A DNA stretch of 64,000 bases from Phoronis australis (Eukaryota > Animalia > Phoronida). A program made the position numbers and the translations under genes. Shown piece after piece: positions 12,911 through 33,922 of this stretch. How positions within the stretch are numbered: position 1 is the first letter of the stretch; the number at the start of each line of letters is the position of its first letter. The stretch spans positions 844,414 through 908,413 of the forward strand of contig NMRA01000125.1 in assembly GCA_002633005.1 (NCBI GenBank), read 5' to 3'. The notes below the pieces were generated by a model that was given only the letters and a program-made list of their open reading frames with translations, had not been told where the DNA came from and made no database searches.

Positions 12911-14223
12911 CCTATGTTAGAATAAACTCAAGAGGCGACCTCCATCAAACGCACAGGAATCCGCAGACTTTCTCGGCGACTTGAAAGTTCACTTCGGTTT
13001 CACAATAAGGCCACGTCAGCAGCTCACAAAATCAAGTTGCAAAGCTCAAGTGACAATTACACAATCGAAGAAGATGCAGAGTCTGCAATGACAAAACTGC
13101 TTTCACTGCTTTAAGTAATCCAGTGATGGAATCAACCGAACATTATCCATTAAAGGAATCGTGAGAAAATTCTGCGAACAGACGTCAGACATTTAAAAAT
13201 GGCGACGGTCATGTGACCATAACAAAGGGAGCATTCGTTTACCCAATTTGTTCATGCGAGGAGAACAGAATATGCAATACTATCTCAGATAATAATAATG
13301 AGAAAGTGGTGCCGAAATTTTGCGAAATAACGTCTGCAAAACAGAATTACCGACATGTTACTTACTGGCCTTCTACAGGCCCATTGCAGCAGGCACTGTG
13401 GATTATATCACTGCAAGGGGCCAACAGAGGCGATGGTCATTGCCTAGCCTCGACCACGCTGTTCGAGGATTCCAATAGTGTTTCAATGTTTTTTTTTGTT
13501 AGCTATGACAGTTTTCACTGAAACTGCTTTACTTTCATAGCATTCTTTTCTAATGCTTTGGTAAGCGAAACACCTCGCCGACATATGGTGTTCTGATGTT
13601 TCATCTTCCACCCATAATTTCGGGCAACAAGAGACCTGACTCGACCTCAGTGTTGTCGCGGCTATTTATATTAGCGTATCCTCAGATTCAATTGAAGATT
13701 CAAGAAGCTTTATTTAACGTCGTTCGGAGAACAGATTAACATTAGCCAGTTGGGCTATTACTACGACAGCTATTTGTATTAGCGTATGCTCAGGCCACTG
13801 TTCTGGGGGTGTATCTGATTATGACACAACATTACAATTTCTTTCATTTCACGCTGCAGGCCACGTACGTGCACATAACACTTTTCAATACAATTTCTAC
13901 TAGGTAAGAAGTATCCACAAACTCGTAGCCGCCAGCATGCCCTGAACGTTAGGTGTACTAAGTAAAAACATGACCTTGAAAGATACGTTATTCAACTTAT
14001 AAGACACGGACATGATCGAGGCATAGCAAACAGCGCGATGTATATCAATGCCCCGACACCCCCACGAGGCATAGTCGCTAATCACGCCATGTAAACACTA
14101 AAGCTGGTGATAACGAGACATGCAGGTCAAAGTGTCACAGTAATCATACGTTGAAATTCAGTTTTACCGGGTCGACTCGTAGGGTGCGTAACAGTTGAGA
14201 CGTGACTTGACATTTCCGGCGGT
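12911..14223. promoter_or_regulatory. Divergent promoter region RNF103/DyP
   Basis: 1.3 kb between divergent ATGs; YY1-like AAAATGGCG ~13196-13204; ETS-like TTCCGG ~14214 just before the DyP ATG. Confidence 0.5.
13418..13446. mobile_element. Solo TIR end of the same family as 60571-61523
   Basis: gggccaacagaggcgatggtcattgccta matches the right terminus ending at 61523. Confidence 0.7.
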
Positions 14224-17200
14224 ATGGCTTTTCGTTACACAGCTAGGCTCTTTCGAGGTGCGAGGAGATTGCACGGTATGTCGATGTATTCTGAGCTAAA
14301 ATATCTTTGAACAATGTCTCAACTTAATAACGGGTTTCTCCCGGCTAACGACCGAGTGGGCTTACAGAATAGACGGACTGACCTATATCTTGTTATACAA
14401 AATTCACAACAACGCATTGCCATTGGGCAGAGTGAGGCTGGCCGCTGATTTTTTTCCGAAAATGAACCGATGATGGTGCATACATGCATATGCACCATCA
14501 TCGCATCAATCAATGAAATGCTTAGTCACTGAGACACGCAGCACTGGTGTCCATGATAAGTAGACCTATATACTGACGCATAAATTTGTCCCGACGTTTC
14601 GAGTGTCGAACTTCATGGAAACGTTCCAAGTTTGTTAGTTACTAGTAGGCGCATGTGCAACTGATGAAGTTTTCTTCTGAGCCGAATGAGCGTGCCACAC
14701 TCACCGGCGTTTACGGAGCAATAATAATCTAGGACCAACATCAGTACGTTATCACTCCTTGGTTCTAACTTGTTGCCCTTTCACTAGAGAACAACTATCC
14801 GAGATTATATATGCTCACTCAAGCCTTAATTTCTTTGCCGTGCTTTTTACCATTTACCGGCACCTCTGTTATTTGCCGTCTTGCTTTGAAAAATGGGTTG
14901 TCCACCGTATTTGTTCAGCTTACAACCTTTTCTTGAGTCAACATTATGCAGTATTAGAGCTATGGGTTTTCTTGTTGGCCGGATACTGCCATAGTCATTT
15001 TAGTGTAACTGGTGCCCGTTCCAACAAAATTGACTTAGCTAAGACAAATCTTAAATTTTAGTAAATTTTTAGATAAAACTTAAATTTGTCTCGAGACTGT
15101 TTTTAGAAAGAGATCTTAAGTTTGAATTAAGTTTTTGATAAAACTGTCATCTTCATTTTAACTATTTGACCGGATGTGGAAGTTTCAAAGAATGGAAGAG
15201 AAGACAAATCTTAGACTTAAGTCAAAAATGAACTTAAGTCAGCTTCTTGGAACGGGCCCCTGGTCCCCAGGTCCCAGCCACATTGGCAGTGTTGACGAGT
15301 GTAGACCAACTGCAGTCTCCCTCTTGTTCATAAACCCGTTTGGAAACAGCCTCTACATGTATATTATCTTGCTGCAGATGCTCTGCGGGTCTACAGATGT
15401 ACATAACAGCCTATTATTTCCAATGACTGCCTGCAGTGAAATAACGATACGAATGGACGCTATTGAGGGCGCATATCAACAAGTGAATACGACATTTGAT
15501 GCCATGTTTTGTGACAATAGGTCTACCTTGAAAACGGAATGAAAAGACGATGGCACGGTAAAGACGATTCGTGAATTGTCATTCGGCGCCGCCGCAGAGC
15601 TTCCGAAATAGTATCAATAATCATTCTCTTCTTAAGAGATTGATGCTAATTTTGAGGTCATTGTTAGCAATCGCATAGGGCGTCGTATGCGATTGAAAAT
15701 AGTGAATTCCTCAGTATTAAATTGTAACATTGCATATTGTGTGATTGTGAATTCGAATATTCAGCAGACTGCCGATAAGGGTCTCATTTTATTATCTGAG
15801 CAGATATATTCATATTGTAGCTGTTTATCTGCACCAGGGCTACTACATGTCGGACTACCGAGACAGTGGGTGCCGGGACATGCTGCTATGATGGGTGTTT
15901 TTATTTTCTACTCCCACGTTCCATTTAGTTCCGATTTAATATCCCGTGAACATTAGGACTACAAAAATGCACAAAACCGCATGTCCTCACTTGCATTCTC
16001 TTACAATTACCCCGGTTCAAAAGTTTTTTGAGGTACCTCTGTTAAGGCTAATTTTTAACGATTATTGTAGGGAATGCAAGGACGCGTGGCTTTGGGTGTA
16101 TTTCGTATAATCTGGATCAAAAATCTTGATTCATTTTGGTGTATAGAATACAAAAAAATTCGGTTAAATTTCAATTTAGCATGGAAATTTCAGACTCCGT
16201 GTTGATCCTGTTCCGACTTTATTTGACATGTGATAAATTTTCGGTTCCGCTGCCGCGGTATATTTTCAATCCTGTTAAATTTTAGTCACGACGTGACTAG
16301 TTATGGGTCCTGTGCCTGGTTGCATGAAACAGTCCCAAATTGTGACTCGGCTAAGTTCCCTACTCTTGTGCGTGTTTTTGTCGTTCTTTATTCACAGACG
16401 GGTCCTTTCACTATGACTTTATCGCTGTTACATGTATAAGCTTCTCTTTGACAAGTTACATTTTCTAATTATATAACTAAAATCTGAGCCCTCGGTTTCA
16501 TGAAAATAAATAGGGACTTGGTCTTCAGATTTGCATCAAAGCCAAAATTGACTTAATAATGAAATTAAGGCAGCATAAGTAAGGACAATGAGTGTTTTCA
16601 CTAGTCTACAAATACACTGTAGATTTACGGAAATTAGTCCTTGTTTGGGACTGTTTTATGCAACCAGGCATTGGCGTGACCAATTCTGGTTTTGAGCTTT
16701 TTTTGATTTCAGAGATTTTAATTCTTGAATAGAAAATGTCCTGGGATTTTTCCGCTTCGGCTTTCCATAGTCTCAGACCTATTATGTGCAGTGGTGGCCA
16801 AGGTGTCCTCTAGCCTATCAACTCTTTATACACAACTGATCAGACCTGGCAATACCAACGAATGTCGGTAGCCTGGGACTTGGATAAAATTTACTATCGA
16901 TATGCAAACCGCATGTACATGTAAACATGCAAGTAGCCCGCTGCGTACAGTGAATGGAAACTAGTTTCACTTCGCTGCTCTGCAGACATGATCGAATAAT
17001 TATGCAGTATTTTAGTTACCTTTCACACCGATTGCCGGTTGTAAAAATAGTACAGGCATCTGCGTTCCCAAGTGACACTACTCATGCCGTACACTACATT
17101 TAGCCTGCTGGTCGCTGATGACAGTCGGATCCCGCCATCTGGTGGCTGGCATGCCGAGCCTGGGTTCTCTTTACTTACCCAACCCAACGTGTGCTTCTGG

Positions 17201-20200
17201 AGTTGGTGGAGTAACAATACGATTATAATTTCTAATTTCTTCAAAAACAAGTTTATGCAGCAATTTCCTAACCGATGAACTCTCACGATTTATATTTTCA
17301 TAGGATTGCCTTTGTAAGATCGTTAAATTTCCCAGCGGATGAACTCTCACGATTCATTTCATACGTTTTCCTGTGTAAGATCGCTAAATTTCCCGCAAAA
17401 AATCTGAAAATACACGTCGGTATACCTGGAAGGAAATCTGATGATCTCTTCAGTGGTCTAAGAAATGGTAAATGTTCTTTGAAGGCAAAGTCCGGGAATT
17501 TTTAATATTGTGGGATGTGCCAGGATTTACAGTGACGTACCGGATGTCTGAATTTATTTTTTGGAAACCAATTAGTCGAAATTCGAACATTCCTGAAACC
17601 GAAAGGGGAGGTCACAATCGATCTCGATTGTTGTATATGCTTTCATTACCCATAATGCCTTGTTTCAGCCGGCATTATTAGTGTCAAATCTAACGCAGTC
17701 TCTCATTGGCTCATTCGGCATGTCACACAAACTCAAAAACAAGTAATGGACATCTAACTCGACAACCCCACCTTCGTTTTTGAAGCGGGAATGTTCCGTA
17801 CAAAAAGCGATCTTTTGATTTAGACTATTTACTGCTGTGAAATTGGTCTCAAATTGTATCTTATACGTTGTCTTTATCGGTGTCTAAGCTCGGTATTTGT
17901 GATATTAACTTGTTTTCAAGGTGCGGGACGAAGTATAAGCACGAAAACACCCGAAGCGCGCTTCGCCGCCTTTCGCCCTCTTCTCGTCGGAGGAATAGCT
18001 GCAGGTTACCTTGGTTACAAACTCTTCACTGAAGAGGTGCCTCCCATCGTCAGCCAGGTTCATGCCGCAGAAGCTGCTTCGCCTCAGCCTTCAGTAAGTT
18101 GCTTGCCATCATGATAACACTTGAGTCAGTGCTTGATTTGGCGACCTGCAGGTCGCCAATATGACTTCAGATTGTGTTTGGCGACCTGGAAAAAATTTCA
18201 AGTCGCCACGAACCACTGCAAGTATCATTGTCAGACAATTATTCCCTCTAAATTCGTTTCAAAGTTGTAATTCACTTTCAAAGTTTAATTTACTACCAGT
18301 TTTCTTAGATTCATTACTTTTGATTCACAATTGTTCCGTTTATTTCGTGAAATCAGCGCATTTGTCACCACGTTTAAATTACAAAGGGAGTAGTAAACAG
18401 ACGGAAGTCGGAATTGTTCGGCAAATGTCGGACAAGATCGACGATATTCGCCAACAACCCCTGCAGTCTTCTGCGTGCTATGTTGACTACCCGTCGATGG
18501 GAGGAATTGAGTTAGAGAATTAAGGTGATTTAGGCATATACGGGGGAAATTGGAAAAGCGCAAGAGAATGGGCGGCGGACAACCGTAGGCCGCGTTTTTG
18601 GTCGACGACCTGTTACGCTGGATAGGAATCCTCGCCTGAGGTCTTCACTTTTGATGACCTCAGCAAAATGCAACTTGGCTTTAGCTAAGCGTCGAGCGCC
18701 GTAAGTGTAGGTTTCTCCCTAAGAAATTCGATGAACTCGGTGTGTAAAATGTTAGTGTTACCAATCTACTCGTTTTAAGTGCACTTAGTTTGGATCTTGG
18801 TGAGGAGAGACATGTTTGCACACTACGGGCTTGCTGTAACGCGGTTCGGCTAGCCTACATTACATACGTTGTGCCATTTTCGCGTGATCACTTCGTGTAA
18901 CCCTCTTGTGAATTCACGGGACGCCAGATTCCATGTGGGACAGGTCCCAACTAGACAAGAGATTCCTATCCGTGTATGCCCTAACTGACTAATAATCAAA
19001 TGGCGCTATGCCGAAATTTCTGCAATGAAGATGTGCTTCTTTGTTTTATCGATTCCAAAAAAACACTTTAAAAGCTATTGGTAACATGATTTTCAGTTTG
19101 CTGGTGAGTACAAACACTGTTTCTATCACAATCATTCCAATGAGCTCATTTATCACTCAAACAACTCACAGGTGATCTCTGGCACAAAGGATCACGCCTT
19201 GTACCTAACCATCTACCTTAAGCCAACCGCGGACGTGAAAGCTTGTGTGAAAGTCCTGGCAAACCTGCAGAAGTCGGTGAGCTCTCTCTTCGACCCGAGC
19301 ACCCCTCCCGATGATGACGACGAAGTTTTGGCCGGTGTCGGGTTTGGTCCCAACACCTGGTCACAGGTAGGTCTTGGAACAACCAATTTATTTAAACTTT
19401 TACACAAACCCGCCTCAGTCGTCAAAGGTAACTTTTGATTNCGTTTCAAAGTTGGTATTCACTTTCAAAGTTTGAGTTACTACCAGTTTTCTTAGATTCA
19501 TTACCTTTGATTCACAATTGTTCCGTTTATTTCGTGAAATCAGCGCATTTGTCACCACGTTTAAATTACAATAGGGAATAGTAAACAGACGGAAGTCGGA
19601 ATTGTTCGGCAAATGTCAGACAAAATCGACGAAATTCGCCAACGACCCCTGCAGTCTTCTGTGTTGACTACCCGTCGATGGGAGGAATTGAGTTAGAGAA
19701 TTAAGGTGATTTAGGCATATACGGGGGAAATTGGAGAAGCGCAAGAGATTGGGCGGCGGACAGCCGTGGGCCGTTTTTTTGGTCGACGACCTGTTACGCT
19801 GGATAGGAATCCTGCCTGAGGTCTTCACTTTTGATGAGCTCAGCAAAATGCAACTTGGCTTTAGCTAAGCGTCGAGCGCCGTAAGTGTAGGTTTCTCCCA
19901 AAGAAATTCGACGAACTCAGTGTGTAAAATGTTTAGTGTTACCAATCTACTCGCTTTAAGTGCACTTAGCTTGGATCTTGGTGAGGAGAGACATGTTTGC
20001 ACACTACGGGCTTGCTGTAACGCGGTTCGGCTAGCCTAAATTACATACGTTGTACCATTTTCGCGTGATCACTTCGTGTAACCCTCTTGTGAATTCACGG
20101 GACGCCAGATTCCATGTGGGACAGGTCCCAACTAGACAAGAGATTCCTATCCGTGTATGCCCTAACTGACTAATAATCAAATGGCGCTATGCCGAAATTT

Positions 20201-23200
20201 CTGCAATGAAGATGTGCTTCTTTGTTTTATCGATTCCAAAAAAACACTTTAAAAGCTATTGGTAACATGATTTTCAGTTTGCTGGTGAGTACAAACACTG
20301 TTTCTATCACAATCATTCCAATGAGCTCATTTATCACTCAAACAACTCACAGGTGATCTCTGGCACAAAGGATCACGCCTTGTACCTAACCATCTACCTT
20401 AAGCCAACCGCGGACGTGAAAGCTTGTGTGAAAGTCCTGGCAAACCTGCAGAAGTCGGTGAGCTCTCTCTTCGACCCGAGCACCCCTCCCGATGATGACG
20501 ACGAAGTTTTGGCCGGTGTCGGGTTTGGTCCCAACACCTGGTCACAGGTAGGTCTTGGAACAACCAATTTATTTAAACTTTTACACAAACCCGCCTCAGT
20601 CGTCAAAGGTAACTTTTGATTTAGGTCCTGGCACAGCAACACGTCCATATTGCGGTATTTACCCACAATGCTAAAACATCTATCAAGCAATTTTCTACCC
20701 TCATTTTCGCGCCATTGGAGTTTCGTATGTTAATTATTGGTGCCTAGCTTTTTTCAAACTTTTCTAGACTGCTTATAACGGTATTCGTTGTTCCAATAAC
20801 AGAGACGCTTTACTCCTGTGCTGCCGGCTGCAACTTCGACTGCAGGAAGTTGGATAAACTTGAGAATATCCGTGGATGCGATATTTTCCCACGACGGTGA
20901 TTACTAGAATTAGTTAAACGTTTTTAAAACGAGTCCAATGTAACTATGCGTGTTCTTGCCTCCAGGTGAAAAGAGATTTCTATCGGGGCCGTCCTATGCT
21001 CAGCCTTGAGCTCATTTCTGGACTTGTAGTGCGTACATGTGGTGTCAAAACCAGCTGGGTAGTTACACGGTCGTTACGCTTCATACACGGAACATAGCCG
21101 GCCTGAAAGAACTCAACAGGCTGTTGTGACAAAATAAGTTGAGAGCAAAATTTCAACGGTAAATGGAAGTACTATAAAACAAACGTTCTTTGACAAAATG
21201 TAGGTTTGCAGCGAGCTGCCTTAAGTAGTGTTGACTGCGCACCTTAAAGTTATGGAGGACCTGGAAAAACTGTCCGATTTTGGCCAACTTCGGAACATCA
21301 TATCTCAGAAATGGCTGATAGATTTACTTGAAACTTTCAAAAATTATACTGTAGTTTGCCTTGGCGGCAGATTTTCTTGTCCACAAACAGTAAATAAGCT
21401 ATTTTGATCGGAAGAATTGCTTTCAATCTACCTACGTGAATACCAGACAGGAATTTGAGTCGCCAATTGGAAAGAACGCAACTGGAGCTGGTCAAAAACA
21501 CCACTAGTCGTTTATTCAATATGATTGTTTTTAAAATATTGGACTTCAATGAAAAAACGTTAAAGTTGTAGAAAACGAAAACGATATGGCATTTGAGAAA
21601 TTTAACTGTAACGACGTTTTTAAGATATTACTTTGAACATCATGTTATTGATTCTGTTGTTTTGCTCAGTTATCAATGTGCATTTTGCCAAAGACATAGT
21701 CACGTGACCCAATTAATGGCATATTGGTAGAAAGCCAAAAGTCAAGTATGACAGACTTTCTGTTTTCAAAAAATAGATACTTTTACTGTATTAAAATTTA
21801 TAGTTTTTCATAAGCGCACCGGCCAAGCCTAAAAAATGGGGGCTCGAATTTTTGAGAAAGTGGACCTTTTACTAAGATTAACAGAGTAGAGCTATGAATT
21901 GTGCATTCGCGGAATTTTGGTAGTTCCTGACTTTAGCGGACTTTTGTATCGTTTTCTGCTTTTTTCGGAGGTTTTGTTTCTCTGAGGCCGACTTTCTCCC
22001 CCCTTCGCCAATGGGGAGGGGGCTCGAGAGCCCCTGATTGCGGGCATGTTTTTAGCTATTAGGTTAAATGCAATTCTATGCCTTACATAACATTATTGAA
22101 CAGGGCTGCAAGCACCGTTATGCCGTGGTACTGAGTAAAGCTGTCCCTTGCCCTCACAGAACGTACGGCCGCACTTAAAATGATAAAGATGATCTCGTAT
22201 TGTTCGTCCTACATTCTCCCCGCATTGCCAAACCAAACTTTCAACAGAAGAGTTTTTGAAAGTATTGATTTGCTTTTATAACTATATACCACGTGTATTT
22301 CACGTGGATAATGTGCCGATATGATACAGTATGTCCTTCAAACACTACATGGTCGAATAATGGGTAATCACAGCCTAATGTGGCCAGGCTGCGCTGTTCT
22401 TATGTTGAATTTGATTCAACACCAGAACAGATGGTCAAAAAAACAAGAAAACTGCTATCCACAAGCTGCACGAGGTCTTCTGCTCCAATTAGGCCCCCTA
22501 CTGTGTGCAGCGATACCAACAGGGGACAGACCTACACGTATGAATTATTAGCTAAATATGTGTCTCACACTTGAGATTTGAGTCTTCGTTAGCCGTGCTA
22601 TTCACTTTCCAAGAAGTTTTGCCTACGTCATAGACCTGAGACTCGTGTAGAATTCTCATTCTCTATGTCTAAGCCTTTTTCACCAATTGTGAAGTGAGAA
22701 CGTAAGATCAAGTACTTGTCTTGAGCAGTAAGTCATTCCTCAGAAGCGGACCACAGAGCAAGGAAACCTTAACGGTGCATATGTTCGACCGTAAATTGTT
22801 CTAAAAATTCCGTTTCTCAACACTACTGCGTGTGCGTATACGCACTTGTTTTAAAATGCACAAACCACATGTAAGTTTTTAAGATTTATTCTTTCCTTGA
22901 AGCAGAGTGCGTGCATCTTGGAAGTGGTAGAATTTGCATTTATTTTTGCAAATACAGGCACTTGCCCCACAGTGCTGAAGTCGTGACTCCTCTGCTCTTT
23001 CCATTGCTGTTCAAGTACGCGAAACTTTTGACAGGTTGTTGGTAAAAAGACCCTGAAGAACTACACCTATCCCCACCGCAAGGGTGCACTTGGGGACATG
23101 CCGAGCACTGGCGGAGATTTGTTTGTGCACGCCAAGTGCCATAAGAAAAGCAAACTGTTCGAGCTGACGCAAAAACTAATGAAAGAGTTGCCAGCCGGAA

Positions 23201-25377
23201 GTGTAGACCGATTCGAGGATGTCTACGGCTGGGTGTACCAGGAGGGTCGTGACTTGTCCGGCTTTATTGATGGTAGGTAGTTTCTTCTTATATATATCGG
23301 GCTTAAACTGGCTTGAAGTTGCCTGGGGTTCTTTATTCAATTCCCCGTTTGGGCCTCTAAAAGTAGAATTCCCAGGGTGTTCTGTTCCAAGCCACCCCTC
23401 AGTTAGTTGACAACCCCATTAAAAGTAAAAGCCTCGCCCGGTAAAGTGATGTAGGACCTTATCGACCAGTCGGTGCAAATATGTATATGCACATCCAACT
23501 GTGGGATATAACACAGTGAGAGTACGGTATATATTTTTATGAAAGTAGAAAGCCTGCAGAACTTGTTTTTTTTTTGAATTTTAACAAATTCTGCAATCAC
23601 TGTCGAGGAAACATGTCTTTTAATAAGTGAAGCAAACCAAGAAAGGAACATCCATAACAAAATAATCGTATCAATGACATGGCCATGTGGTCGTAAATTT
23701 TATATGATAGTTCAAAAACCCTGGTACAGTTTTCTAAAATATCATTTATTTATTGCAACTTTTGATTTATTCATAAAAATCATAAAAGTCCTATTTTCAT
23801 ATCTCCTGTTCCAGAAGCGGAACATTTTAAAAACATTTCGTATTATGGTTTGTTGTAGAAGGGTATATGAAATCCTAAGTATGTGAAAGTTTCATATGGT
23901 TCCGATGAGTAATTTCTGAGCTATGATGTTGCGAAGTTAGCCTTATTTGGACATTTTTCCTACATAAGCTGAAGTTTGGTGCAGTTGACTGAATTTTCAT
24001 GTTACATGTATAACGTGGTCAGGCTACTGTGTTCACATGTTGAAATTGTTCCAGTTGCCTAGGTGTCAGTGCTGTGCATCTACGTTTAAACCCGCTTGAA
24101 AAGTGTTCCATTGCTTTTAGGGGTTACACTGTCTTTCGTGTTGGTTTAAAACAGCGGTTTAACTTGAAAACCAGAGTAAATAACATCCGTGGCATAAGTG
24201 TGGGATTCATGTCGTTAAGTGGAGACTGGGTGCGAAATCCATCGTTGTTTCATCGTTGATGCGCCATTAGAAGTGGTGAGATTACTCCCAATGTTTATCT
24301 TGATTTCACAATTTAGGTACCGAGAACCCAGCGGACGAGGAACTGCGCTATAACGTTGCCGTGGAGAAAGAAACTGGTGGAAGTTATGTGGTAAGCCTGC
24401 TAAAATAGACATTAACATGTTGATCTTTGAGTTAAGAAACGACAAGATTTCCTCTAGCAATGTGCTACATCCGGGACAACATGATGGAGGACACTTTCCT
24501 TACCAGAGACTCTCGAGTGCAAAAATGATCAATTGCATGGTTTAAGTTTTCAGGCCACGCGACTAGTCTTGAGTCAAATGTCGAGGTTGGTGGCATGGGA
24601 TCCAAGAGTTTTCAAAAGATTATGATGGTTTGAATTGAGAGGGAACCTGTTTGGAATGTTTGTCATCAGATCAATTGGCGTTTTCTTTAGATCACGCAGA
24701 AATGGATACATGATTTCAACGTCATCAACAAGACACCAACCAAACAACTGGAGCAGTTTGTTGGAAGATCTAAAGAAGACAGCGTGGAACTGAGACGGAA
24801 AGCTGCGTCGGCGCATGTGGCCCGCATGACCGGAGGTAAGTTAAAGTTTCCTGATGCCATTCTAAGTGAGAGACAACCGTTTCACAATGTCAGTATGCGA
24901 ACCCTCATTTATCGTAGGGCACTTAGCTTCAATTATTAGTGCCCTGGACCTTGTATTCAACTACAAAAGTGTAAAAATCAAGTTTCCCGCATAATGTGTG
25001 CGTTTACTTGATTGAGCGAATGCTGACAGCATCACCATCGCCGACTCACTATTGAACCGTATTTGCAACCACTTCAACACTTTCCACTGCTTTCTCTTCA
25101 TATCGACTTTTCTATTATCCATACAGGTACCAATTTCGTGCAGAAGAAAGCGTTTCAAATCGTCCGCCAATCCCAGCCGTACGGCACGGTTAACGGGGAA
25201 GCGGGTCTGTTCTTCATCGGATACGCTGCGTCTCCGGAGAACTTCGAATTCATGCTCGATCGCATGGTAGGTGCTGGCGGTGACGGCCACAACGATGACA
25301 TCATGAAACTCACGGTTTGCGTGAAAGGAACCTATTGGTACTTTCCCAGCCTTCAGCAGTTGAGAAGTATGGCGTAG
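14224..25377 (+). CDS. DyP-type (dye-decolourising, YfeX-like) haem peroxidase with predicted mitochondrial presequence; join(14224..14275,17921..18093,19172..19366 [or identical 20353..20547],23035..23272,24317..24390,24691..24835,25127..25377), 375 aa
   Basis: Spliced product carries the DyP hallmarks: MPSTGGDLFVH, GRDLSGFIDG|TENP (GXXDG, catalytic Asp codon 23269-71), GGSYVITQKW.HD, SAHVAR (proximal His 24814-16), IVRQSQPYG (distal Arg 25165-67), GLFFIGYA, MLDRMVG, GTYWYFPS. All six introns are GT-AG and phase-compatible (1128 nt). Exon 1 is the least certain; exons 3-7 are strong. Confidence 0.9.
15012..15259. mobile_element. MITE, PIF/Harbinger-like
   Basis: TIR gtgcccgttccaacaaaattgacttag / cttaagtcagcttcttggaacgggccc, 3-bp CTG duplication on both sides. 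Confidence 0.7.
16313..16670. mobile_element. MITE, PIF/Harbinger-like
   Basis: 27-bp TIR tgcctggttgcatgaaacagtcccaaa / tttgggactgttttatgcaaccaggca (1 mismatch); flanks ctg/ttg. Confidence 0.7.
18127..18218. mobile_element. Short CAGTG...CACTG element with an internal perfect palindrome
   Basis: ttggcgacctgcaggtcgccaa palindrome plus repeated tggcgac/gtcgcca; no TSD found. Confidence 0.45.
18255..20621. repeat. ~1.18-kb tandem duplication (18255-19440 / 19442-20621) around a single N
   Basis: Near-identical copies with scattered SNPs and indels in the first half. Confidence 0.92.
20353..20547 (+). CDS. Second, identical copy of DyP exon 3 (inside a tandem duplication, probably haplotype artefact)
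   Basis: Same translation and splice sites as 19172..19366; copies are separated by a single N at 19441. Confidence 0.6.
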
Positions 25378-25818
25378 AGAGTTGGGAAATTAGCAATGCA
25401 CATGGCCAGGATGTCCCCAGACAGGGTTAATTATATGAAAATTTTTATGGATGTTAATTGTTCTAATCATTTGTATATCGTTTTCATTATTGGCTGCAGC
25501 ATTTGTTATGAAAACTTCTCATTACTTTGTTATCGTAACAAATTCGTTGTTTCTAGGCATACTAATCCAGAGAAATGTGGTCCAGCGTATTATGTACAGT
25601 GTTGTCCCAAGTACATGTGCTCCAGCGTAGTGTGTACAGTGTAGTCCCAAGTAGGTACAATGTCCAATGTCTGGTATCACTAGTCCATGTGCAAACGGCT
25701 TACGTGCAGTGCTGTTTAAGTCCAACTTCACGAAACGTAATATCGTTATATTCTATAACATTGAATGTGTTGCGCACCTTTCTGTCCTCTGTATTGTGTT
25801 TAATAGACAACGTTCCAA

Positions 25819-25824
25819 AATAAA
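25819..25824 (+). terminator. Candidate polyadenylation signal of the DyP gene
   Basis: AATAAA ~440 nt after the stop, followed by a T/GT-rich stretch. Confidence 0.5.
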
Positions 25825-27314
25825 GGGAACTTTTGAATAAGTTTCCGCGTTGTTCCTAACTTGGAGTCCTACATACAATGCTCTCTCTCCGTTTACAACA
25901 ATGCACCATGTCATGCACCATCAGTCCTGTAGTCCATCGAATACGCTCTTGATGAACGCCAATAAGGAAACTGTAATTTAAATTGCCTATACTCATCCCG
26001 AACATCTCCGATATTTTCGTATACTCAAATATCCCCTCGGAGTTGAACGTTATCTCCTCATGTGCTGATTAAATTGTCAAACCTTTCCTTGGTGAATGAT
26101 TGAAGGTACAGTATGAGTGAACTAGCTCGTATACGAACAGATAATTTTCATCTTCGAGAGGAATGAATACGGGGCTGCAGAAATATCCGAAGTGTTCCGG
26201 ATGTCCCATGGAGTTACTCCTAAACGACCCATTTTTGCTGATGGGCCCAGACCACCTAAACTTTCCATAGACTGTAAAAATTGGCAAGTCACGTGTCATG
26301 CTTTGAGTGAAGGTTCACATCCCTAGCAACTTTATGATTGGTCAATTTTCGACTAGTCTAGTATGGTGTAGCCTGAAGTTAAGTTGTCGCGGTCACGGGT
26401 CCAGCAGCAGCTAACATGTCAAAACACACATAAGAAGAACAATAACAATGTTTTACTCGAGACCAAAGTTGTAACATGCACACAATTCGATATTTTACAC
26501 ACTGCTGTGTTAAAGGAAACAGTCATGCTCGCTGTATGAGATAGATATATAAACGAAAATCAACAGGCGAGGGTCATTCTAGATTTTTTCTGTCGCCATT
26601 GGGGGCGTGTGAAAACAAATTTCTCACAAATTCTCACCGTCTCCCGAATCCCCCGTTGATTGTACAAGAACGCATACAACTGAATTAACTTGAGGTTGTT
26701 TGTTACATGTATATGCTTTAACGCCACAACACAATAATTATTGGGTCATAGTCCGGGGCGGGGGGGGGGNGGTTGGCAATCCCACCGCCGATTCTGGCAA
26801 AACCGAAAGAAAAAAAACTTGGCGTCGGAGCATCTAGTGAGAAAATACGGTGAAATTGGTAACGGGGGCGAAGTTGGTAGCGACCGGGGTAGGGGTGAAA
26901 TTCTTCCACTGCTCTTGGGCAGTACTATTCTATAGGCGGACGAAAAGCCAAGAGCAGATACGTTCGAGTGGAAACATTACACGTTTCGACCCTGGCCAGA
27001 TAAGTTGTGTCCTTATAGATGTATCTCCTCCGCTCCGCTCTTCTGTTCTAATAATCTCTTTGAGTAGCTAGTATTGAAACTCTGTATTGTTTAACACCGG
27101 ACTTTCGACCATAGCCAGCTCATACAAACGGTGTATAACGCATACTGATTATCCACGGTACTACGATCAATACATGGAGTCGACAAAATCAAGAACTTAA
27201 TCTGCTGCAACGATGCTGCAAAACCAATAGGATGTGCCCAGATATAACTTTCCATAACTATCATATCAATGTTGACTTTACTAAGTTCAGCTGCGCTCAC
27301 GTGCTCATTCAATA

Positions 27315-27853
27315 CTAGTCAACTTTATGTTCGTCAAGTTTGTTTATGTCTGTTTGCATTTTGGCGCGCAAAGCGAATGCCTGCCTGCCAATCTCCATAT
27401 TCGTCTGCGAAAAGTCAATAACGTCACCGCCGTCAATGTCCTCCTCAAACACTTCAGCAGTGAGGACACTAGAGAGATCTTTTTCTCCAACTCCCTGTTT
27501 GTCCACAGCATTTGCTATTGAACCATTTATGTTATATTGAGAATAAAATATGCCTATAATATCACCGCGTTTCACTTTAATTCTATCCGCCGTGTTGAGT
27601 TCCACGTATTGAGTCTGAAGCGCGTGAGCAGGTGGAAGTTCATTTTCACCCACAAGCTTGAAACCATAGGTTTGCTCACCGGTTTTCCTCCACACGCTTA
27701 CGTTGGCGCAGACTTTTGTATCGCGTGGAAAGTACTCCCATGCTATGACTTCGCCATCTGTCGGAAATGTCCATTCCAACATCAATCTCAGCCAATTGTT
27801 TCCTAAATTGGGCAGAAACTCCGGCGCCCTCCCGACGTAGATTGTCTTCATTT
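27315..27853 (-). CDS. Terminal exon of an uncharacterised protein (beta-rich globular domain)
   Basis: Protein-like ORF of ~178 codons after acceptor gtgttttag|AA at 27853; motif pattern FPTDGEVIAWEYF...VSVWR...FKLVGENEL...IKVKRGDIIGIFY; stop at 27315. Confidence 0.75.
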
Positions 27854-28556
27854 CTAAAACACATAAATGAACACGTCGCATTACATAACTTTGGATTACT
27901 GGTAACATTTGCCATCTAATACATCGACATTTATGTCAACACGACACACGAGGAGTGTAAGCTTTATGCAAAGTGCAAGTTTTTGGTTTTGTAACTTTTT
28001 CAAACAGCGCACACGGATTTCATTGAACCGACTTCGAGCGTGAAGTGCATGCTCGGTATGATTTATCACTAACAGCAGCGCCAATAGGGGGTGCACATAT
28101 CGCATAATTTGTAATTCCTGAGCATGATCCACTCGCAAATGAAAAGCAAAATGGTACATCGCCGTGGCTGTCATACCCTGTGTCCTCATCTGTTGTAGCC
28201 GGTTTTGAAATTAATCTGAGTGTGATGACTATGAAGCATGTGACATGTCGTAAGATTAAATCTGCTGTAAATGGAAGGCAAGGTTGGGTACTCCGTGTAT
28301 TATAGTCTAGGGTGCCAGCGAACACATTCGAAGGAGGGTATTTACCCCCAATACACTTAAACTGTGAATATGTGCATGAAATTCCCCGAATGAGTAAAAT
28401 CGAGGCGCGATTTTTAAAATATCAAGTGAATGAGATCTGATTTAGCCTTTACAAATTTACTGTTGAAAAGTATTTTTAAATATGAAGAAAGCCGTACCGC
28501 ACACAAAGAGGATTGTCCTGTGAAACTCAGTTAGATGTATGCAAAACATACTTTGT

Positions 28557-28667: not shown

Positions 28668-30915
28668 TTTGTAAGGTGCGGGGCATGGGCTTGCTCGTAT
28701 ACAATAGTAAACTTGTCAAGAGTTTCGTGTGATGAAAGAACTTTTCGTTAAAATATGACTTACAAAAATAGTTTTGGGGTTCAAATCGAGACTCGCAGTA
28801 TTAATGTAGGGCAGCTACTATGCGCATGTCCGCCGTTTCTGCAATGAGGAGCCCCTTGTGATCGCTTCAGTGTTGGTTGGCCTGTGACAGGGGCAAGTGT
28901 AATCGTGACGATATAGTATGCGCGCACCCGTGGAGGGAGGGGACGGGCGTTGGGGGCTCTAACGAGCCTCCATCCACTAAAAAGTCAGGAACTGCCAAAA
29001 TTCGGCGAATGCACAGTTCATAGTTCTGAACGTACCCCTTAAATCTCAGTAAAAGGTCCATATTCTCAAAAATTCGAGCCCCCCATTTTTAGCCTGGGTG
29101 TGCGCATTTACAGGGAGTCCTGAGCCGAACCGTCTCAACGGCAGATGGACTGTGGGGTTTGACAGAACACCCCCACATCTGTGTCCAGGCATTGTCCATC
29201 TAAAATAATACTGTTTGACCTACTGATGGAAATAAGCATTACCAAGGAGTAAAAAGTATAATTCTGACCATTCGCCACGTAAGATTCACATCTTTCTGAG
29301 ACGGATGTAAAATTTATAGCTTTCATTTACGTTTGATCAGTCACATATATCACTTACCACCACCGATTGTTTTTCAGAAAGAAACAATGCTTTCAATTCA
29401 AATGCAAAGGCGATGGTAATAAAGAACAGATTCAAGTTCATAACTCCATACAAATCTCACACTACCCTTCCAAGCCAGTTGGAACAGAGCCATCGATATC
29501 CTGCGACTACTTAACCCCAGTTACAAACGTGCAATTACTGGAAAAACGATTTTCAAGTAAAGACTACCAAAGACCCTTAATCATCGCGAAGTTCAAGTGC
29601 CGACCTGGATCAACTGCAGCCATCTACATGTACAGTGGGTGGCACTGAGCAGTTAGGTTGCGGCCGCGGCCAATTTGCAGTGCCAAAAAAACTAAATTCT
29701 TAGAACAGGTCAGGCTTGGGGCAGTTTTTAGATAGGCGTTGCATGCAGGCTCAGGGAGCCTGGTTTATTTGCATTTTTGAACTTGTTAGGAATGAGGAAA
29801 GACCACTTGCTTGGCTGTAGTTGCATTCTTCTTCAAGATGACGCCCCCTGTTGGATTTGTTCGCTGCATGGTAGCGACTGAGAGAAATGGGCTGCGATTT
29901 TAGGCAGGCCTCAAACAAGTCACATTTGCAAAAAATAGTTGGTTGACTTTACCTTTGAACCACATTTCTGGATTCTGGAAGAAATTTGTTTTCAGAATCT
30001 ATTGTTGGTTTATGTCGCCCATCGGCAGAGGAGTGACGGTTTTGGCCGGGGTGAAAAGTGACATTTTTTGTGTTTTCTTTTCCCCATTTTAACCTACCTT
30101 GCTTTTCGGTAGGAGTGAAAGGACCAAAAGTACAAGACGGAATAAAGTTTCCGTGCTCATCTGTAGGGCTTGTGATGTGAAATGACTCAAAACTGTCATG
30201 TCGGTTTTCGACAGAATGGAGAAAGGGACAACTGATTCCATCGATATAGGCGGATTTAGGGTGGGGCCAGGAGGCCCCCCCTTGGCTCCCACAAAAAATA
30301 AAACAGCAAGAGCGTGAGAAAATATTGAGTTAATAATTAATCCCGGTAATTAACATGCGGCTGAGGGGTGACTTAGTGTACATACAGACCGCCGGCTACA
30401 GACCGTCGGCGCAATCGTTTTCCCATTTTTTTTTACTCCGATTGTTTTAGTAGTACGTCCACATCCTCAGAACTCAGAAATTCCACCCCCCCCCCATCTT
30501 TTAGGCTAGGTGCGCGCATGCAATCGTGCTTTTCGCGTTTGCCCGAGACAGAATGTTGGGCCCCTTTATGACATCCTAGATCCGCTATTGATTGTCGTGT
30601 GTTATGCTGAGCAAAACCCAGTGATAACTATTCTGTGCCCTCCGTGTGTACGCAACTGGGGTTTGCTGGCAAAACCGTCTCGTCACCGATTCGGATAACC
30701 TGAAACTAAGTGCCAAACAACGTGCCGTGAAAATCCACGGTATTTTGTGAGTCTGACTGAAAATAGCTCGGCAAATGGACAGTTTACGAAACGAGAAGAG
30801 GAAGAAACAAGCGGACGGAAGTAGTCTCTTGGCATTACTGTTGATGTCCGATAGTACGAGACACTGTTGTGCTTTTTCGTCTGATAATCGGACCGAATCT
30901 AAGTAAGATAATTAA

Positions 30916-31205
30916 TGTGACGGGACGTTCGTAACTACGCTTATTGTTATTCTTATTTAGTTGCAAATGTTCAGTTATTCTTATGCTAATGTCTTTGTTG
31001 CGTCTCTGTTCGCCTTTGTTACGGGGGCATGTGGGCGCGACTGTATGTGTCGGGCACTTCGCTAGCGACAGGCTTAGGAGAAGGGTGTTTCCTTCTTTTG
31101 CTTTCATGGAAAGTTGATCGTTATCATGTGCAAATTGAACTGAAACGAATGCCTGATGAGAGAAAATACATATTCTGAAGTCCAGTGGAGACTTACTCTG
31201 TTACA
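30916..31205 (+). repeat. 5' LTR (290 bp)
   Basis: tgtgacggg...ctgttaca, direct repeat of 33923-34212. Confidence 0.95.
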
Positions 31206-31207
31206 TT

Positions 31208-31220
31208 TGGCGCCCAACGT
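31208..31220 (+). promoter_or_regulatory. Primer-binding site, tRNA-Lys(CUU)-type
   Basis: TGGCGCCCAACGT 2 nt after the 5' LTR equals the first 13 nt of the known Lys1,2 PBS. Confidence 0.85.
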
Positions 31221-31674
31221 AAATCGAACAAACCAGAACTTTTCTCTGACGACGTCTGTAAAATTATGACCGTGCTACGGCCTTGCATGGAAAGTTGAAC
31301 TGCTTGCTGACTTTACAAGACTTATGTCGCGACTCGGGTAAGAATTTTCTGGAAAGGACAATGTCTTAATTTGCTACTGTGGTCACAAGTTCGTGGTGGT
31401 GTCTGGAACGGATCCTCGTGCTCGCCAAGAACGGAACTTTCTGGACTATGTGTTTGACGACGCCCTATCCTGCAGGAAACTGGACTCAGTTGCATTTTGT
31501 GTCACTGAAAATGTTTTGTGTTACTGTTGTTTGACATAAGTTCACTTGATGTGCCGGGTATTGAGAGTTCTTTAATTTCTTAAGCTAGTGTATTTTCATG
31601 CTGTAGGTCGAGTTATCTCACATTATTGGGGTGATTCTAAGTTTGTTCATGTTCCGTATATTTCATCCTTTGTC

Positions 31675-32619
31675 ATGGATTCGCTGTGTGACAAATGTGT
31701 GATTGTTGGTGACGTACCAGAGTGTGAGGATGGTGAGTTGTTGAATTTTCTGCCCGCTGAAATTCGCAATGGCGTTAAGCATGCTTGGCGAGTTAACTTA
31801 TCCTTTTATATCGTCTTTGATTCTGAAAAAATGGTTAACAAGTGTGTTAATTTTGTACGTAAGAACCATTTCAAGGATTTCAAATTGAAAATTTCAAAAG
31901 CTACTGTTACTGATGAGTCATTTCTCCGTGAATGTGCCGGTAAAAGTGATGAAAATATGTCATCGTTGATTTCATTGATAGGGGAGCTGTCTCCTGTTCA
32001 AAAGAAAATTGTGTCATCTGTTGTTGGGTCCGACGACCCTAGCAGTGTTGAGAGTAAACATGCGTCTTCAAGTGTGAACTCATGGGGTAATGTTTTTCAT
32101 AGTGACCTTGTTCGCTTACCCGCATTTTCAGGTAGTGAGAGCTCGGGTGTTTCCTTTCAGCAGTGGTTAGGCGAAGTTCAGTGTTTGCAGGTTACGTTGC
32201 AAAACGATGGTTTTCTGAAACAAGCTATCAGACGCTCATTGAGGGGCAGTGCGGCTGAATTGCTTGAATGTGATTTGTCTGTAAACGAATTGCTTAGTAA
32301 GTTAAAGTCTAGATACGGTGATGTGTTACCTGTTGGAAAAATTGTTGAAAAATTCTACAGTTCTAGACAGGATAAAAATGAAAGCGTTACCCAATGGGCT
32401 GGGCGCTTAGAGAAATTAGTAGTTCAAATGAAAATGTCTGAATCATGTCCCATTCCGAAAGAGGCGCTGCCATCTGTGCTAAAATCACATTTTGTGTCTG
32501 GTTTGCTGTCAAATGACGTCAGACTTGGTCTAAAGCATTTTGTGGAACACAATAGTGAAGAATCATTTGACGAGCTACTGATTTACGCCCGTCGTTTAGA
32601 CATTGAGTTCAGCAGAAAA
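31675..32619 (+). CDS. Gag (PNMA-like capsid), truncated by gap
   Basis: LPAFSG...SFQQWLGEV...KQAIRRSLRGSAAELL...LSKLKSRYG...FYSSRQDKNESVTQWAGRLEKL (major homology region-like); first ATG at 31675. Confidence 0.85.
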
Positions 32620-33577
32620 NNNNNNNNNNNNNNNNNNNNNNNNNNNNNNNNNNNNNNNNNNNNNNNNNNNNNNNNNNNNNNNNNNNNNNNNNNNNNNNNN
32701 NNNNNNNNNNNNNNNNNNNNNNNNNNNNNNNNNNNNNNNNNNNNNNNNNNNNNNNNNNNNNNNNNNNNNNNNNNNNNNNNNNNNNNNNNNNNNNNNNNNN
32801 NNNNNNNNNNNNNNNNNNNNNNNNNNNNNNNNNNNNNNNNNNNNNNNNNNNNNNNNNNNNNNNNNNNNNNNNNNNNNNNNNNNNNNNNNNNNNNNNNNNN
32901 NNNNNNNNNNNNNNNNNNNNNNNNNNNNNNNNNNNNNNNNNNNNNNNNNNNNNNNNNNNNNNNNNNNNNNNNNNNNNNNNNNNNNNNNNNNNNNNNNNNN
33001 NNNNNNNNNNNNNNNNNNNNNNNNNNNNNNNNNNNNNNNNNNNNNNNNNNNNNNNNNNNNNNNNNNNNNNNNNNNNNNNNNNNNNNNNNNNNNNNNNNNN
33101 NNNNNNNNNNNNNNNNNNNNNNNNNNNNNNNNNNNNNNNNNNNNNNNNNNNNNNNNNNNNNNNNNNNNNNNNNNNNNNNNNNNNNNNNNNNNNNNNNNNN
33201 NNNNNNNNNNNNNNNNNNNNNNNNNNNNNNNNNNNNNNNNNNNNNNNNNNNNNNNNNNNNNNNNNNNNNNNNNNNNNNNNNNNNNNNNNNNNNNNNNNNN
33301 NNNNNNNNNNNNNNNNNNNNNNNNNNNNNNNNNNNNNNNNNNNNNNNNNNNNNNNNNNNNNNNNNNNNNNNNNNNNNNNNNNNNNNNNNNNNNNNNNNNN
33401 NNNNNNNNNNNNNNNNNNNNNNNNNNNNNNNNNNNNNNNNNNNNNNNNNNNNNNNNNNNNNNNNNNNNNNNNNNNNNNNNNNNNNNNNNNNNNNNNNNNN
33501 NNNNNNNNNNNNNNNNNNNNNNNNNNNNNNNNNNNNNNNNNNNNNNNNNNNNNNNNNNNNNNNNNNNNNNNNNNNNN
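32620..33577. other. Assembly gap (958 N)
   Basis: N run. Confidence 1.
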
Positions 33578-33745
33578 AGTATCATAGGGAGGAATAAAAT
33601 TCAGAATGCATTTGGTTCAGTTCCTTATCACATTGTCTCTCGGAGAAATAATGTGTATTCTGTGCGGGCGGCAGATGGTGCCGGACCGATTAAAACTGTA
33701 AATAGGTCGGAGATCTTGGATGGTAGGGACTTGGTAGGTCTGTAG
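33578..33745 (+). CDS. C-terminal end of Pol (integrase GPY/F-like tail)
   Basis: GRNKIQNAFGSVPYHIV...VYSVR..DG.G..KTVNRSEIL resembles the Gypsy integrase C-terminal module; lies between the gap and the PPT. Confidence 0.75.
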   Translation, partial: SIIGRNKIQNAFGSVPYHIVSRRNNVYSVRAADGAGPIKTVNRSEILDGRDLVGL

Positions 33746-33922
33746 TATTTTGAGTTTTGCTGCTGTTGCGAGCGCGCCAGGCGTTGCCGTGCTGAAAGTG
33801 GAATGTGCGTTGTGATGTCTGTAGCCAGTACGAGGAGACTGAATGATTTCCATTTCACTGCGCTTTGTTTTCATATTGTATGTTAATGATGTCGGGACGA
33901 CATTTTTTGTTAGGGGGGAGAA

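What the first reader, a model, noticed from the sequence alone, without database searches (positions are those of the whole stretch)
14224..25377. Intact, intron-rich bacterial-type DyP peroxidase in an animal genome
Seen: seven in-phase exons rebuild a 375-aa protein with every DyP catalytic motif (GFIDG Asp, SAHVAR His, IVRQS Arg), on the same scaffold as the animal genes RNF103, MRPL43 and CHMP7, so it is not bacterial contamination. Known: DyPs are characterised mainly in bacteria and fungi and are not part of the vertebrate or Drosophila peroxidase set; the motifs resemble the short YfeX/DyPB class. Inference: an old horizontally acquired (or widely lost ancestral) peroxidase domesticated in this lineage. 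One intron splits the last Gly codon of GXXDG, which suggests long residence.
Basis: partly seen in the sequence, partly recalled or inferred. Interest (0 to 1): 0.85.

Follow-up and report, generated by a model that had tools for sequence, protein, structure and literature searches.

The report
Invertebrate DyP peroxidase, likely mitochondrial
This is a real, spliced and expressed gene for a haem peroxidase of a type already known to be widespread in invertebrate animals, so it is not a recent bacterial import; what seems unreported is that it and most of its relatives carry a leader predicted to send the enzyme into the space between the two mitochondrial membranes, where it would likely remove hydrogen peroxide.

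Summary
The gene is real. Seven GT-AG exons give a 375-aa DyP with Asp219, His286 and Arg306, and all six joints are read in three stranded RNA runs plus one transcript contig. A second copy of exon 3 looks like a haplotype-overlap assembly artefact. It is not lineage-specific. Relatives (mostly 50-66% identical, down to about 40%) occur from sponge and placozoan to molluscs, flatworms and hemichordates, share four intron positions, and form one clade inside a eukaryote clade apart from bacteria. This is DyP subclass P1 (Yoshida and Sugano 2022), and a tapeworm member has been assayed. The new lead is the N-terminus: an Arg-rich, acid-poor start, then a hydrophobic stretch, then V-x-A|A. That pattern is found in 86 of 100 full-length proteins against 31 of 2,386 control windows, and protist relatives show it too. 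It fits a two-part presequence for the mitochondrial intermembrane space. A published mussel 2-D spot (30.4 kDa, pI 6.0) fits the clipped form, not the precursor. Location is untested, and the Naegleria relative is absent from a published mitochondrial list. Verdict: new member of a known kind, with a testable unreported feature.

The parts
14168..14223 (+). 5' UTR; transcripts start at about 14168-14176
   Evidence: contig begins 14168; 15 molecules end at 14176 in run X4
14224..14275 (+). Exon 1 coding: aa 1-17, Arg-rich start of the predicted mitochondrial presequence
   Evidence: joint to 17921 in three RNA runs
17921..18093 (+). Exon 2: aa 18-75; rest of the presequence, uncharged hydrophobic stretch (aa 37-50), V64-H-A66|A67 predicted cleavage site, Q73 where the DyP fold begins
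   Evidence: RNA joints
18252..19440 (+). First copy of a 1.19-kb, 97% identical duplicate ending at a single N (19441); holds a second exon 3 (19172-19366). Likely two haplotypes laid end to end by the assembler
   Evidence: same pattern at N 56280; mRNA holds one exon 3
20353..20547 (+). Exon 3: aa 76-140, N-terminal ferredoxin-like half
23035..23272 (+). Exon 4: aa 141-219, ends in GFID with the distal Asp219; intron 4 splits Gly220
   Evidence: same intron in loci L082 and L094
24317..24390 (+). Exon 5: aa 220-244
24691..24835 (+). Exon 6: aa 245-292, proximal His286 and Arg289
   Evidence: Pfam Dyp_perox_C E 2.7e-6
25127..25377 (+). Exon 7 coding: aa 293-375 and stop; distal Arg306, Asp349/Asp350
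   Evidence: Pfam Dyp_perox_C E 4.8e-13
25378..25837 (+). 3' UTR to about 25825-25837
   Evidence: contig ends 25837; molecules begin at 25825 in X4

Best explanation
This gene encodes an expressed class P (subclass P1) DyP haem peroxidase of a family shared across invertebrate phyla, likely inherited from early animals and predicted to work in the mitochondrial intermembrane space, where it would likely remove hydrogen peroxide. Shown: gene structure, splicing, catalytic residues, family membership, shared introns, one animal clade inside a eukaryote clade. Inferred steps: (1) the Arg-rich, acid-poor first ~35 residues draw the precursor through TOM and TIM23; (2) the uncharged hydrophobic stretch at aa 37-50 stops transfer in the inner membrane; (3) the inner membrane peptidase cuts after V64-H-A66 and frees a 309-aa, ~34-kDa soluble enzyme; (4) haem is bound by His286, and Asp219 with Arg306 split H2O2 to form compound I, which is reduced in two one-electron steps (the established DyP cycle). 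The natural electron donor is not known. Reduced cytochrome c or quinol is my first guess, by analogy with yeast cytochrome c peroxidase (recalled); catalase-like turnover, as reported for the tapeworm enzyme, would need no donor. Odds: identity as an intact P1 DyP 0.97; vertical descent within animals 0.9; mitochondrial 0.75; soluble or anchored in the intermembrane space 0.6.
For: Gene and RNA. Family: 107 hits with exon 7 and 532 with a profile, 120 listed. Named ones are a sponge, Trichoplax, flatworms, an acanthocephalan, molluscs, annelids, Lingula, bryozoans, a nemertean, Priapulus and hemichordates. Asp, His and Arg are kept in 131, 136 and 136 of 139 aligned rows. A model of the 61%-identical P0003 matches V. 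cholerae DyP (E 1e-30, TM 0.91 by target length) and leaves residues 1-61 unfolded. Introns at four positions are shared with other genomes. Tree: 22 animal rows 100/100, 44 eukaryote-type rows 100/99. Presequence: 86 of 100 full-length proteins pass a 'basic, acid-free start, then hydrophobic stretch from residue 18 or later' test against 31 of 2,386 internal windows; counted back from the conserved Gln, V at -9 in 47, A at -7 in 68, A at -6 in 76 of 100. 16 of 20 protist-side proteins have an extension of 50 aa or more, several ending V/I/F-x-A|E-E, close to the Imp1 motif [I/V][H/D/F/M]N|[D/E] with a hydrophobic -3 residue (PMC8835746). 27 of 28 bacterial-type rows have 8 residues or fewer before the domain. 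Mytilus protein P0026 computes to 42.1 kDa, pI 8.86 whole and 33.9 kDa, pI 6.03 clipped; a mussel gill 2-D spot named dyp-type peroxidase ran at 30.4 kDa, pI 6.00 (PMC5302490). The window protein has no in-frame Met between 1 and 162, and no other first exon was listed, so no cytosolic form is evident. EmDyp binds haem and has peroxidase and catalase activity.
Against: No localisation experiment was found for any member, and no dedicated predictor (TargetP, MitoFates) was available; my test's thresholds were set after seeing the sequences, and the 100 proteins are related, so they are not independent. The presequence-bearing Naegleria protein (XP_002676075) is not in the published table of 946 mitochondrial and 78 peroxisomal proteins. 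The Echinococcus authors read a predicted N-terminal helix as a secretion signal and found a splice form without it. The mussel spot rests on 2 peptides matched to a Trichoplax sequence; it shows N-terminal loss but not where: cuts anywhere from residue 35 on give pI 5.8-6.3, and 30.4 kDa is below the 33.9 computed. A Dreissena spot ran at 27.0 kDa, pI 5.7, smaller still. The hydrophobic stretch is modest (Kyte-Doolittle 1.43 over 17 residues) and Gly/Ala-rich, so it might pass on into the matrix. The site has Ala, not Asn, at -1 and Ala, not an acid, at +1, so it departs from the yeast Imp1 motif. 39 of 139 proteins were set aside as partial or short-leadered, including schistosome paralogs with a shorter leader. 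EmDyp did not decolorise RB19.
Confidence: 0.6

Rival explanations
1. Same enzyme and ancestry, but imported into the mitochondrial matrix, or kept anchored in the inner or outer membrane by the hydrophobic stretch, so it guards another compartment.
For: The first 30 residues look like a matrix presequence (7 K/R, 1 acid, hydrophobic moment 0.85). The hydrophobic stretch is modest and Gly/Ala-rich. The site departs from the Imp1 motif.
Against: The hydrophobic stretch and the V-x-A|A motif behind it are kept across phyla. A Mytilus form cut only at residues 20-30 computes to 39-40 kDa, pI 6.5-8.3, unlike the spot at 30.4 kDa, pI 6.0.
Confidence: 0.15
2. The leader is a secretion signal or signal anchor, and the enzyme is extracellular or in the ER/lysosome for defence against outside peroxide, as proposed for the tapeworm long form.
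For: bioRxiv 10.1101/2022.11.07.515413 reads the N-terminal helix so. V-x-A|A also fits signal peptidase I (recalled). Some paralogs (P0090, P0095, P0140, P0144) start directly with a hydrophobic run.
Against: In the main family the hydrophobic run starts near residue 30-40, behind a long Arg/Ser/Ala-rich, acid-free stretch, unlike an ER signal. The tapeworm claim rests on a predicted helix only.
Confidence: 0.1
3. It is in the intermembrane space, but its main job is haem synthesis or porphyrin control: a peroxide-driven porphyrinogen oxidase beside the last steps of the pathway.
For: E. coli YfeX, among the closest solved relatives (5gt2, E 2.4e-53), oxidises copro- and protoporphyrinogen (PMC3215433). 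The late haem steps face the intermembrane space (recalled).
Against: That paper treats the activity as a general peroxidase effect seen on overexpression. emdyp rises with oxygen and in host liver, which fits peroxide defence. Whether these animals lack the usual oxidase was not tested.
Confidence: 0.1
4. A bacterial gene taken up by this animal's own lineage and then domesticated (the first reader's lead option; also proposed for Schistosoma, from lower eukaryotes, in PMC4420034).
For: Absent from tunicates and vertebrates per PMC9719856. The closest solved structures are bacterial. The animal part of the tree does not resolve phyla.
Against: Best prokaryote loci are 29-32% identical over the domain (51 loci) against 50-66% for most animals. 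Four introns are shared. Animals form one clade whose neighbours are protists, and animals plus bacteria as one side is rejected, AU p = 0.007 (the grouping was written after seeing the tree). A single transfer from a protist into the animal stem is not excluded: no named choanoflagellate or fungal member turned up.
Confidence: 0.04
5. Contamination, pseudogene, or a gene with a real tandem exon 3.
For: Exon 3 is present twice and in frame.
Against: Six spliced joints in three runs; no joint between the two exon-3 copies, and one copy in the transcript contig; the same single-N duplicate pattern recurs at 56280.
Confidence: 0.01

Closest known systems
DyP subclass P1 (Yoshida and Sugano 2022, PMC9719856; parts 1-3 of 4 read)
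   Same: Class P DyP of Metazoa (Placozoa, Cnidaria, flatworms, molluscs, annelids, brachiopods, rotifers, nematodes, hemichordates, cephalochordates) with Amoebozoa, Excavata and Sar; same active-site residues; my tree recovers the same make-up.
   Different: The paper cut out the DyP domain, called P1 'unexplored' and, in the parts read, says nothing on an N-terminal leader or location.
EmDyp of Echinococcus multilocularis (bioRxiv 10.1101/2022.11.07.515413; whole text read, figures and supplements not held)
   Same: Animal DyP with all conserved residues; binds haem; peroxidase (DAB, luminol) and catalase activity; long form has an N-terminal helix.
   Different: 434/461 aa with two 5' splice forms, the helix read as a secretion signal without a test. 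The window gene shows one 5' form only. EmDyp itself was not in my alignments; the cestode Rodentolepis protein was.
Bacterial class P DyPs: V. cholerae DyP (5de0), K. pneumoniae KpDyP (6fks), E. coli YfeX (5gt2)
   Same: Fold (TM 0.88-0.91 by target) and Asp/His/Arg, which align with positions 143/215/232.
   Different: About 30% identical, ~300 aa, no leader, no introns.
Dictyostelium DyPA (PMC8230527; passages read)
   Same: Eukaryotic class P DyP with a solved structure (7o9j, E 5e-53).
   Different: Subclass P4, intronless, no leader, cytoplasmic by EYFP fusion.
Yeast cytochrome c peroxidase Ccp1 (recalled, not tested)
   Same: Works like: a haem peroxidase sent to the intermembrane space by a two-part presequence.
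   Different: Unrelated fold (peroxidase-catalase superfamily). That the DyP uses cytochrome c is a guess.

Membership tests
DyP-type peroxidase (PF04261/PF20628, TIGR01413) | Profile match | tested here: met
   Exons 6 and 7 pass the Dyp_perox_C cut-off; full-length homologs P0003 and P0005 pass TIGR01413 at 158 and 157 bits, cut-off 100.5. The spliced protein itself was not scanned against Pfam.
DyP-type peroxidase (PF04261/PF20628, TIGR01413) | GXXDG with distal Asp; distal Arg; proximal His with nearby Arg and acid | tested here: met
   Asp219, Arg306, His286, Arg289, Asp349/350; aligned to solved DyPs through a family profile
DyP-type peroxidase (PF04261/PF20628, TIGR01413) | Two ferredoxin-like folds | tested here: met
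   On homolog P0003 (61% identical): domain pLDDT above 90, Foldseek E 1e-30 to 5de0
DyP-type peroxidase (PF04261/PF20628, TIGR01413) | Haem binding and peroxidase or dye-decolorising activity | not testable with these tools
   Reported for EmDyp: DAB and luminol yes, RB19 no
Class P, subclass P1 | ~300-aa domain, and a place in the Metazoa plus protist clade apart from bacterial class P | tested here: met
   Domain aa 73-375; animal clade 100/100 within a 44-row clade with Naegleria, Willaertia and Echinamoeba, 100/99. The paper's own sequence set was not used.
Intermembrane-space protein with a two-part presequence | Basic, acid-poor, amphipathic start followed by a hydrophobic stop-transfer stretch | tested here: met
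   7 K/R, 1 D/E in the first 30; hydrophobic window from residue 32; 86 of 100 vs 31 of 2,386 controls. Home-made test.
Intermembrane-space protein with a two-part presequence | Inner membrane peptidase site | tested here: inconclusive
   V-H-A|A-E has the hydrophobic -3 residue but not the Asn and +1 acid of the yeast Imp1 motif; protist members have +1 Glu
Intermembrane-space protein with a two-part presequence | Found in mitochondria by experiment | tested here: inconclusive
   Only published tables could be checked. Naegleria member absent from a 946-protein list; Acanthamoeba main tables too large to read; mussel 2-D spot fits a clipped form.
Class I DyP (EfeB, Tat-exported) | TIGR01412 score and twin-arginine signal | tested here: not met
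   16-21 bits against a cut-off of 428 on three homologs

The most novel reading that the evidence does not exclude
Subclass P1 DyPs are an overlooked mitochondrial intermembrane-space haem peroxidase, already mitochondrial in early eukaryotes (animals, amoebozoans and heteroloboseans share the two-part leader), kept as a near-universal gene in marine and freshwater invertebrates and parasitic flatworms, and lost in vertebrates and tunicates. It would be the animal counterpart of yeast cytochrome c peroxidase built on an unrelated fold, and the 'secreted' tapeworm form would be a misread mitochondrial one.
Probability: 0.5. Interest if true: 0.65.

Novelty: new member of a known kind. Interest (0 to 1): 0.42.

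Why it matters
As 'a DyP in an animal' it matters little: that is in print (2015, 2022) and in routine NCBI annotation. The leader matters more. If the location holds, many invertebrates have a mitochondrial peroxide sink that mammals, flies and yeast would not have revealed. That bears on how oysters, mussels and worms cope with hypoxia and reoxygenation, gives a natural job to an 'unexplored' DyP subclass, and changes how the flatworm enzyme proposed as a drug target should be read. It can be tested with one GFP fusion and one import assay.

Tried and rejected
No whole genome is held for this window, so paralogs, a haem-pathway inventory and a cytochrome c peroxidase gene in this animal could not be checked. 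Paper searches for a mitochondrial DyP: 'DyP, peroxidase, mitochondrial targeting, invertebrate' 0 papers; 'dye-decolorizing peroxidase, mitochondria, intermembrane space' 4 listed, none on point by title and abstract start; 'dyp, peroxidase, mitochondrial proteome' 3 unrelated; 'YfeX, mitochondria, proteom' 14 listed and 'YfeX, mitochondri, peroxidase, oyster' 3 listed, no localisation seen. The library lacks most subscription papers. Published mitochondrial proteomes: Naegleria negative for the leader-bearing protein; PMC8321541 supplement no hit; Andalucia text names cytochrome c peroxidase but no DyP; Acanthamoeba 4 readable supplements had no 'peroxidase' entry at all and six larger tables could not be read, so uninformative; Medusozoa text no mention. 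The sequencing-run search listed no RNA holder by index; the raw-read runs added by species label carried the evidence. Earlier scan findings: none on this gene or family. CHMP7 not confirmed by Pfam. A real tandem exon 3 was rejected. Three intron junctions in metagenome loci were unresolved or one codon off (L086, L093, L094) and were not counted as shared. No complex prediction with cytochrome c was run: an enzyme-substrate pair is a poor case for that tool.


Full report
Observation. The three motifs lie in frame on the + strand at 23260, 24808 and 25159. Seven exons (14224-14275, 17921-18093, 20353-20547, 23035-23272, 24317-24390, 24691-24835, 25127-25377) with six GT..AG introns give 1,128 nt and 375 aa; coding GC is 0.53 against 0.37-0.44 in the introns. 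Intron 4 splits Gly220, the last Gly of GXXDG. Of five exons scanned singly, two pass the Pfam Dyp_perox_C cut-off and one gives a weak Dyp_perox_N hit. Three stranded raw-read RNA runs of one study (18-19% of each read) show all six joints with 20-195 reads each, and a 1,650-nt contig of a second study covers all seven exons in order. The transcript runs from about 14170 to about 25830.

Exon 3 occurs twice, letter for letter, in a 1.19-kb block that is repeated at 97% identity on either side of a single N. The same pattern, 1.26 kb at 96% around another single N, doubles the MRPL43-like exon at 55020-57528. Reads go from exon 2 to either copy and from either copy to exon 4; none is listed that joins the two copies, and the contig has one exon 3. 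I read this as two haplotypes laid end to end; long DNA reads were not available.

Surroundings. The RING gene on the - strand lies nearest to eukaryotic RING clusters, one of them named RNF103. The exon at 55148-55594 hits the Pfam family that holds MRPL43. The CHMP7 call was not confirmed. No whole genome is held. The organism is an unnamed animal; its closest named DyP is from a bryozoan at 67% over the domain, without firm support.

Family. Exon 7 found 107 longer proteins and a 38-sequence profile found 532, of which 120 were listed. Named hits come from a sponge, Trichoplax, flatworms, an acanthocephalan, molluscs, annelids, a brachiopod, bryozoans, a nemertean, a priapulid and hemichordates, many annotated 'dye-decolorizing peroxidase YfeX-like'. 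Most are 50-66% identical to the window protein, the most distant about 40%. No listed name was an arthropod, echinoderm or vertebrate, but absence was not tested. The 51 prokaryote loci found are 29-32% identical over the domain (one partial match 37%). Asp219, His286 and Arg306 are kept in 131, 136 and 136 of 139 rows, partial sequences included. A model of homolog P0003 has a confident domain, an unfolded first 61 residues, and matches V. cholerae, Klebsiella and E. coli class P DyPs.

Age. I placed introns in 22 of the 43 metagenome loci (left out were 20 loci matched in one long piece and one bacterial-looking locus). Four window introns recur at the same base: after nt 420 in 2 loci, nt 658 (the GXXDG intron) in 2, nt 732 in 3, nt 877 in 9. 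These loci are unnamed, taken as animal from identity and introns, and several are near-copies, so they stand for about six genes. They also hold introns the window lacks (nt 496, 696, 781, 971). A 141-row quick tree and an 81-row careful tree (rows picked by hand from those groups, plus new hits) agree. The 22 animal rows are one clade (100/100). They sit in a 44-row clade (100/99) with Naegleria, Willaertia, Echinamoeba and unnamed transcriptome proteins, apart from 28 bacterial-type rows, of which 9 are named and 19 are my label. Forcing animals onto the bacterial side costs 50 log units, AU p = 0.007. The gene is therefore older than any single phylum. Whether it came down from the last eukaryotic ancestor or entered the animal stem from a protist is open: no named choanoflagellate turned up.

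What is known. Yoshida and Sugano 2022 (PMC9719856; parts 1-3 of 4 read) define subclass P1 as mainly metazoan, with Amoebozoa, Excavata and Sar, absent from tunicates and vertebrates, and unexplored. Zamocky 2015 (PMC4420034; passages) noted the Schistosoma genes and proposed transfer from lower eukaryotes. Ulrich and Brehm (bioRxiv 10.1101/2022.11.07.515413; whole text; figures and supplements not held) showed haem binding, peroxidase and catalase activity for the tapeworm enzyme, no RB19 decolorising, and induction in host liver. So the headline is known.

The lead. The first 72 residues are not part of the fold. They hold 7 K/R and 1 acid in the first 30, an uncharged hydrophobic run at 37-50, and V64-H-A66|A67-E just before the conserved Gln73. 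Of 139 proteins, 100 had a Met start and an extension of 50 aa or more (median 81); 39 partial or short-leadered ones were set aside. 86 of the 100 pass a simple two-part test, against 31 of 2,386 internal windows of the same proteins. The thresholds were chosen after seeing the sequences and the proteins are kin. On the protist side 16 of 20 have such an extension, 13 of those 16 with a basic, acid-poor start, several ending V/I/F-x-A|E-E. 27 of 28 bacterial-type rows have 8 residues or fewer (the exception is my start-codon choice). This anatomy is that of proteins sorted to the intermembrane space and cut by the inner membrane peptidase, whose substrates share a hydrophobic -3 residue at a set distance from a membrane segment (PMC8835746; passages); the match to the yeast Imp1 motif is partial. 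One outside datum fits processing: a mussel gill spot named dyp-type peroxidase at 30.4 kDa, pI 6.00 (PMC5302490; table rows; 2 peptides), against 42.1 kDa, pI 8.86 for the Mytilus precursor and 33.9 kDa, pI 6.03 for the clipped form. It does not show where the cut is or in which compartment. A Dreissena spot ran at 27.0 kDa, pI 5.7 (PMC11036304; one passage). One datum is against: the Naegleria leader-bearing protein is missing from a 946-protein mitochondrial list (PMC8134430; passages and supplement search), while its leaderless paralog, ending in SRL, is on the second sheet, which I take to be the peroxisomal one. Five paper searches showed no report of a mitochondrial DyP; subscription papers and several large supplements were out of reach.

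Mechanism. Most likely: import through TOM and TIM23, arrest at the hydrophobic run, release of a ~34-kDa enzyme into the intermembrane space, haem on His286, compound I formed with Asp219 and Arg306, and removal of H2O2 using a local donor or by catalase-like turnover. The chemistry follows from the family; the location and donor are inferred. Rivals are a matrix or anchored location (0.15), secretion (0.1), a porphyrinogen-oxidase role as shown for E. coli YfeX (PMC3215433; passages; 0.1), a lineage-specific gain (0.04) and artefact (0.01). Dictyostelium DyPA, which has no leader and is cytoplasmic (PMC8230527; passages), belongs to another subclass.

Verdict. Observation confirmed; interpretation partly supported. 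A new member of the known subclass P1, interest 0.42. The boldest reading left open, an ancient intermembrane-space peroxidase of invertebrates and protists, has probability about 0.5 and would deserve about 0.65.

Noticed in passing
window 55020-56279 and 56281-57528: A second 1.26-kb, 96% duplicate around a single N doubles an MRPL43-like exon; same likely haplotype-overlap artefact as at 19441.
   Followed up: partly
window 30914-34214: Two identical 294-nt direct repeats (30914-31207, 33921-34214) flank a PNMA/Gag-like frame (31576-32598, Pfam E 1.6e-5) and a gap: looks like a young LTR retrotransposon.
   Followed up: no
window 13000-14224: RNA on the opposite strand at 13000-13273 suggests the RNF103-like gene starts head to head with the DyP gene, about 0.9 kb apart.
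   Followed up: no
window 27318-27935 (-): A 206-aa open frame with no Pfam hit.
   Followed up: no
window 20544-20963: A minor GT..AG joint from exon 3 to about 20963, 3 reads in one run only: a cryptic exon.
   Followed up: no
P0174, P0180, P0185, P0198, P0199, P0215: A clade (100/100) of long-leader eukaryote-type DyPs that keep the His but have lost the GXXDG motif as such: possibly changed chemistry or haem-binding only.
   Followed up: no
P0168/P0291 (Naegleria gruberi XP_002669769): A leaderless DyP ending in SRL, a peroxisomal-type signal, listed on the second sheet of the Naegleria proteome table: protist DyPs may serve more than one organelle.
   Followed up: partly
P0090, P0095-P0097, P0140, P0144: Schistosome and unnamed paralogs have a short leader that starts hydrophobic, like a secretion signal: re-targeting after duplication.
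   Followed up: no
P0098, P0099, P0139, L063, L065: A second mollusc-type paralog clade, several with a longer Cys-containing linker between leader and domain.
   Followed up: no
P0142: A 917-aa unnamed protein with an animal-type DyP domain in its first 355 residues and about 560 further residues not examined.
   Followed up: no
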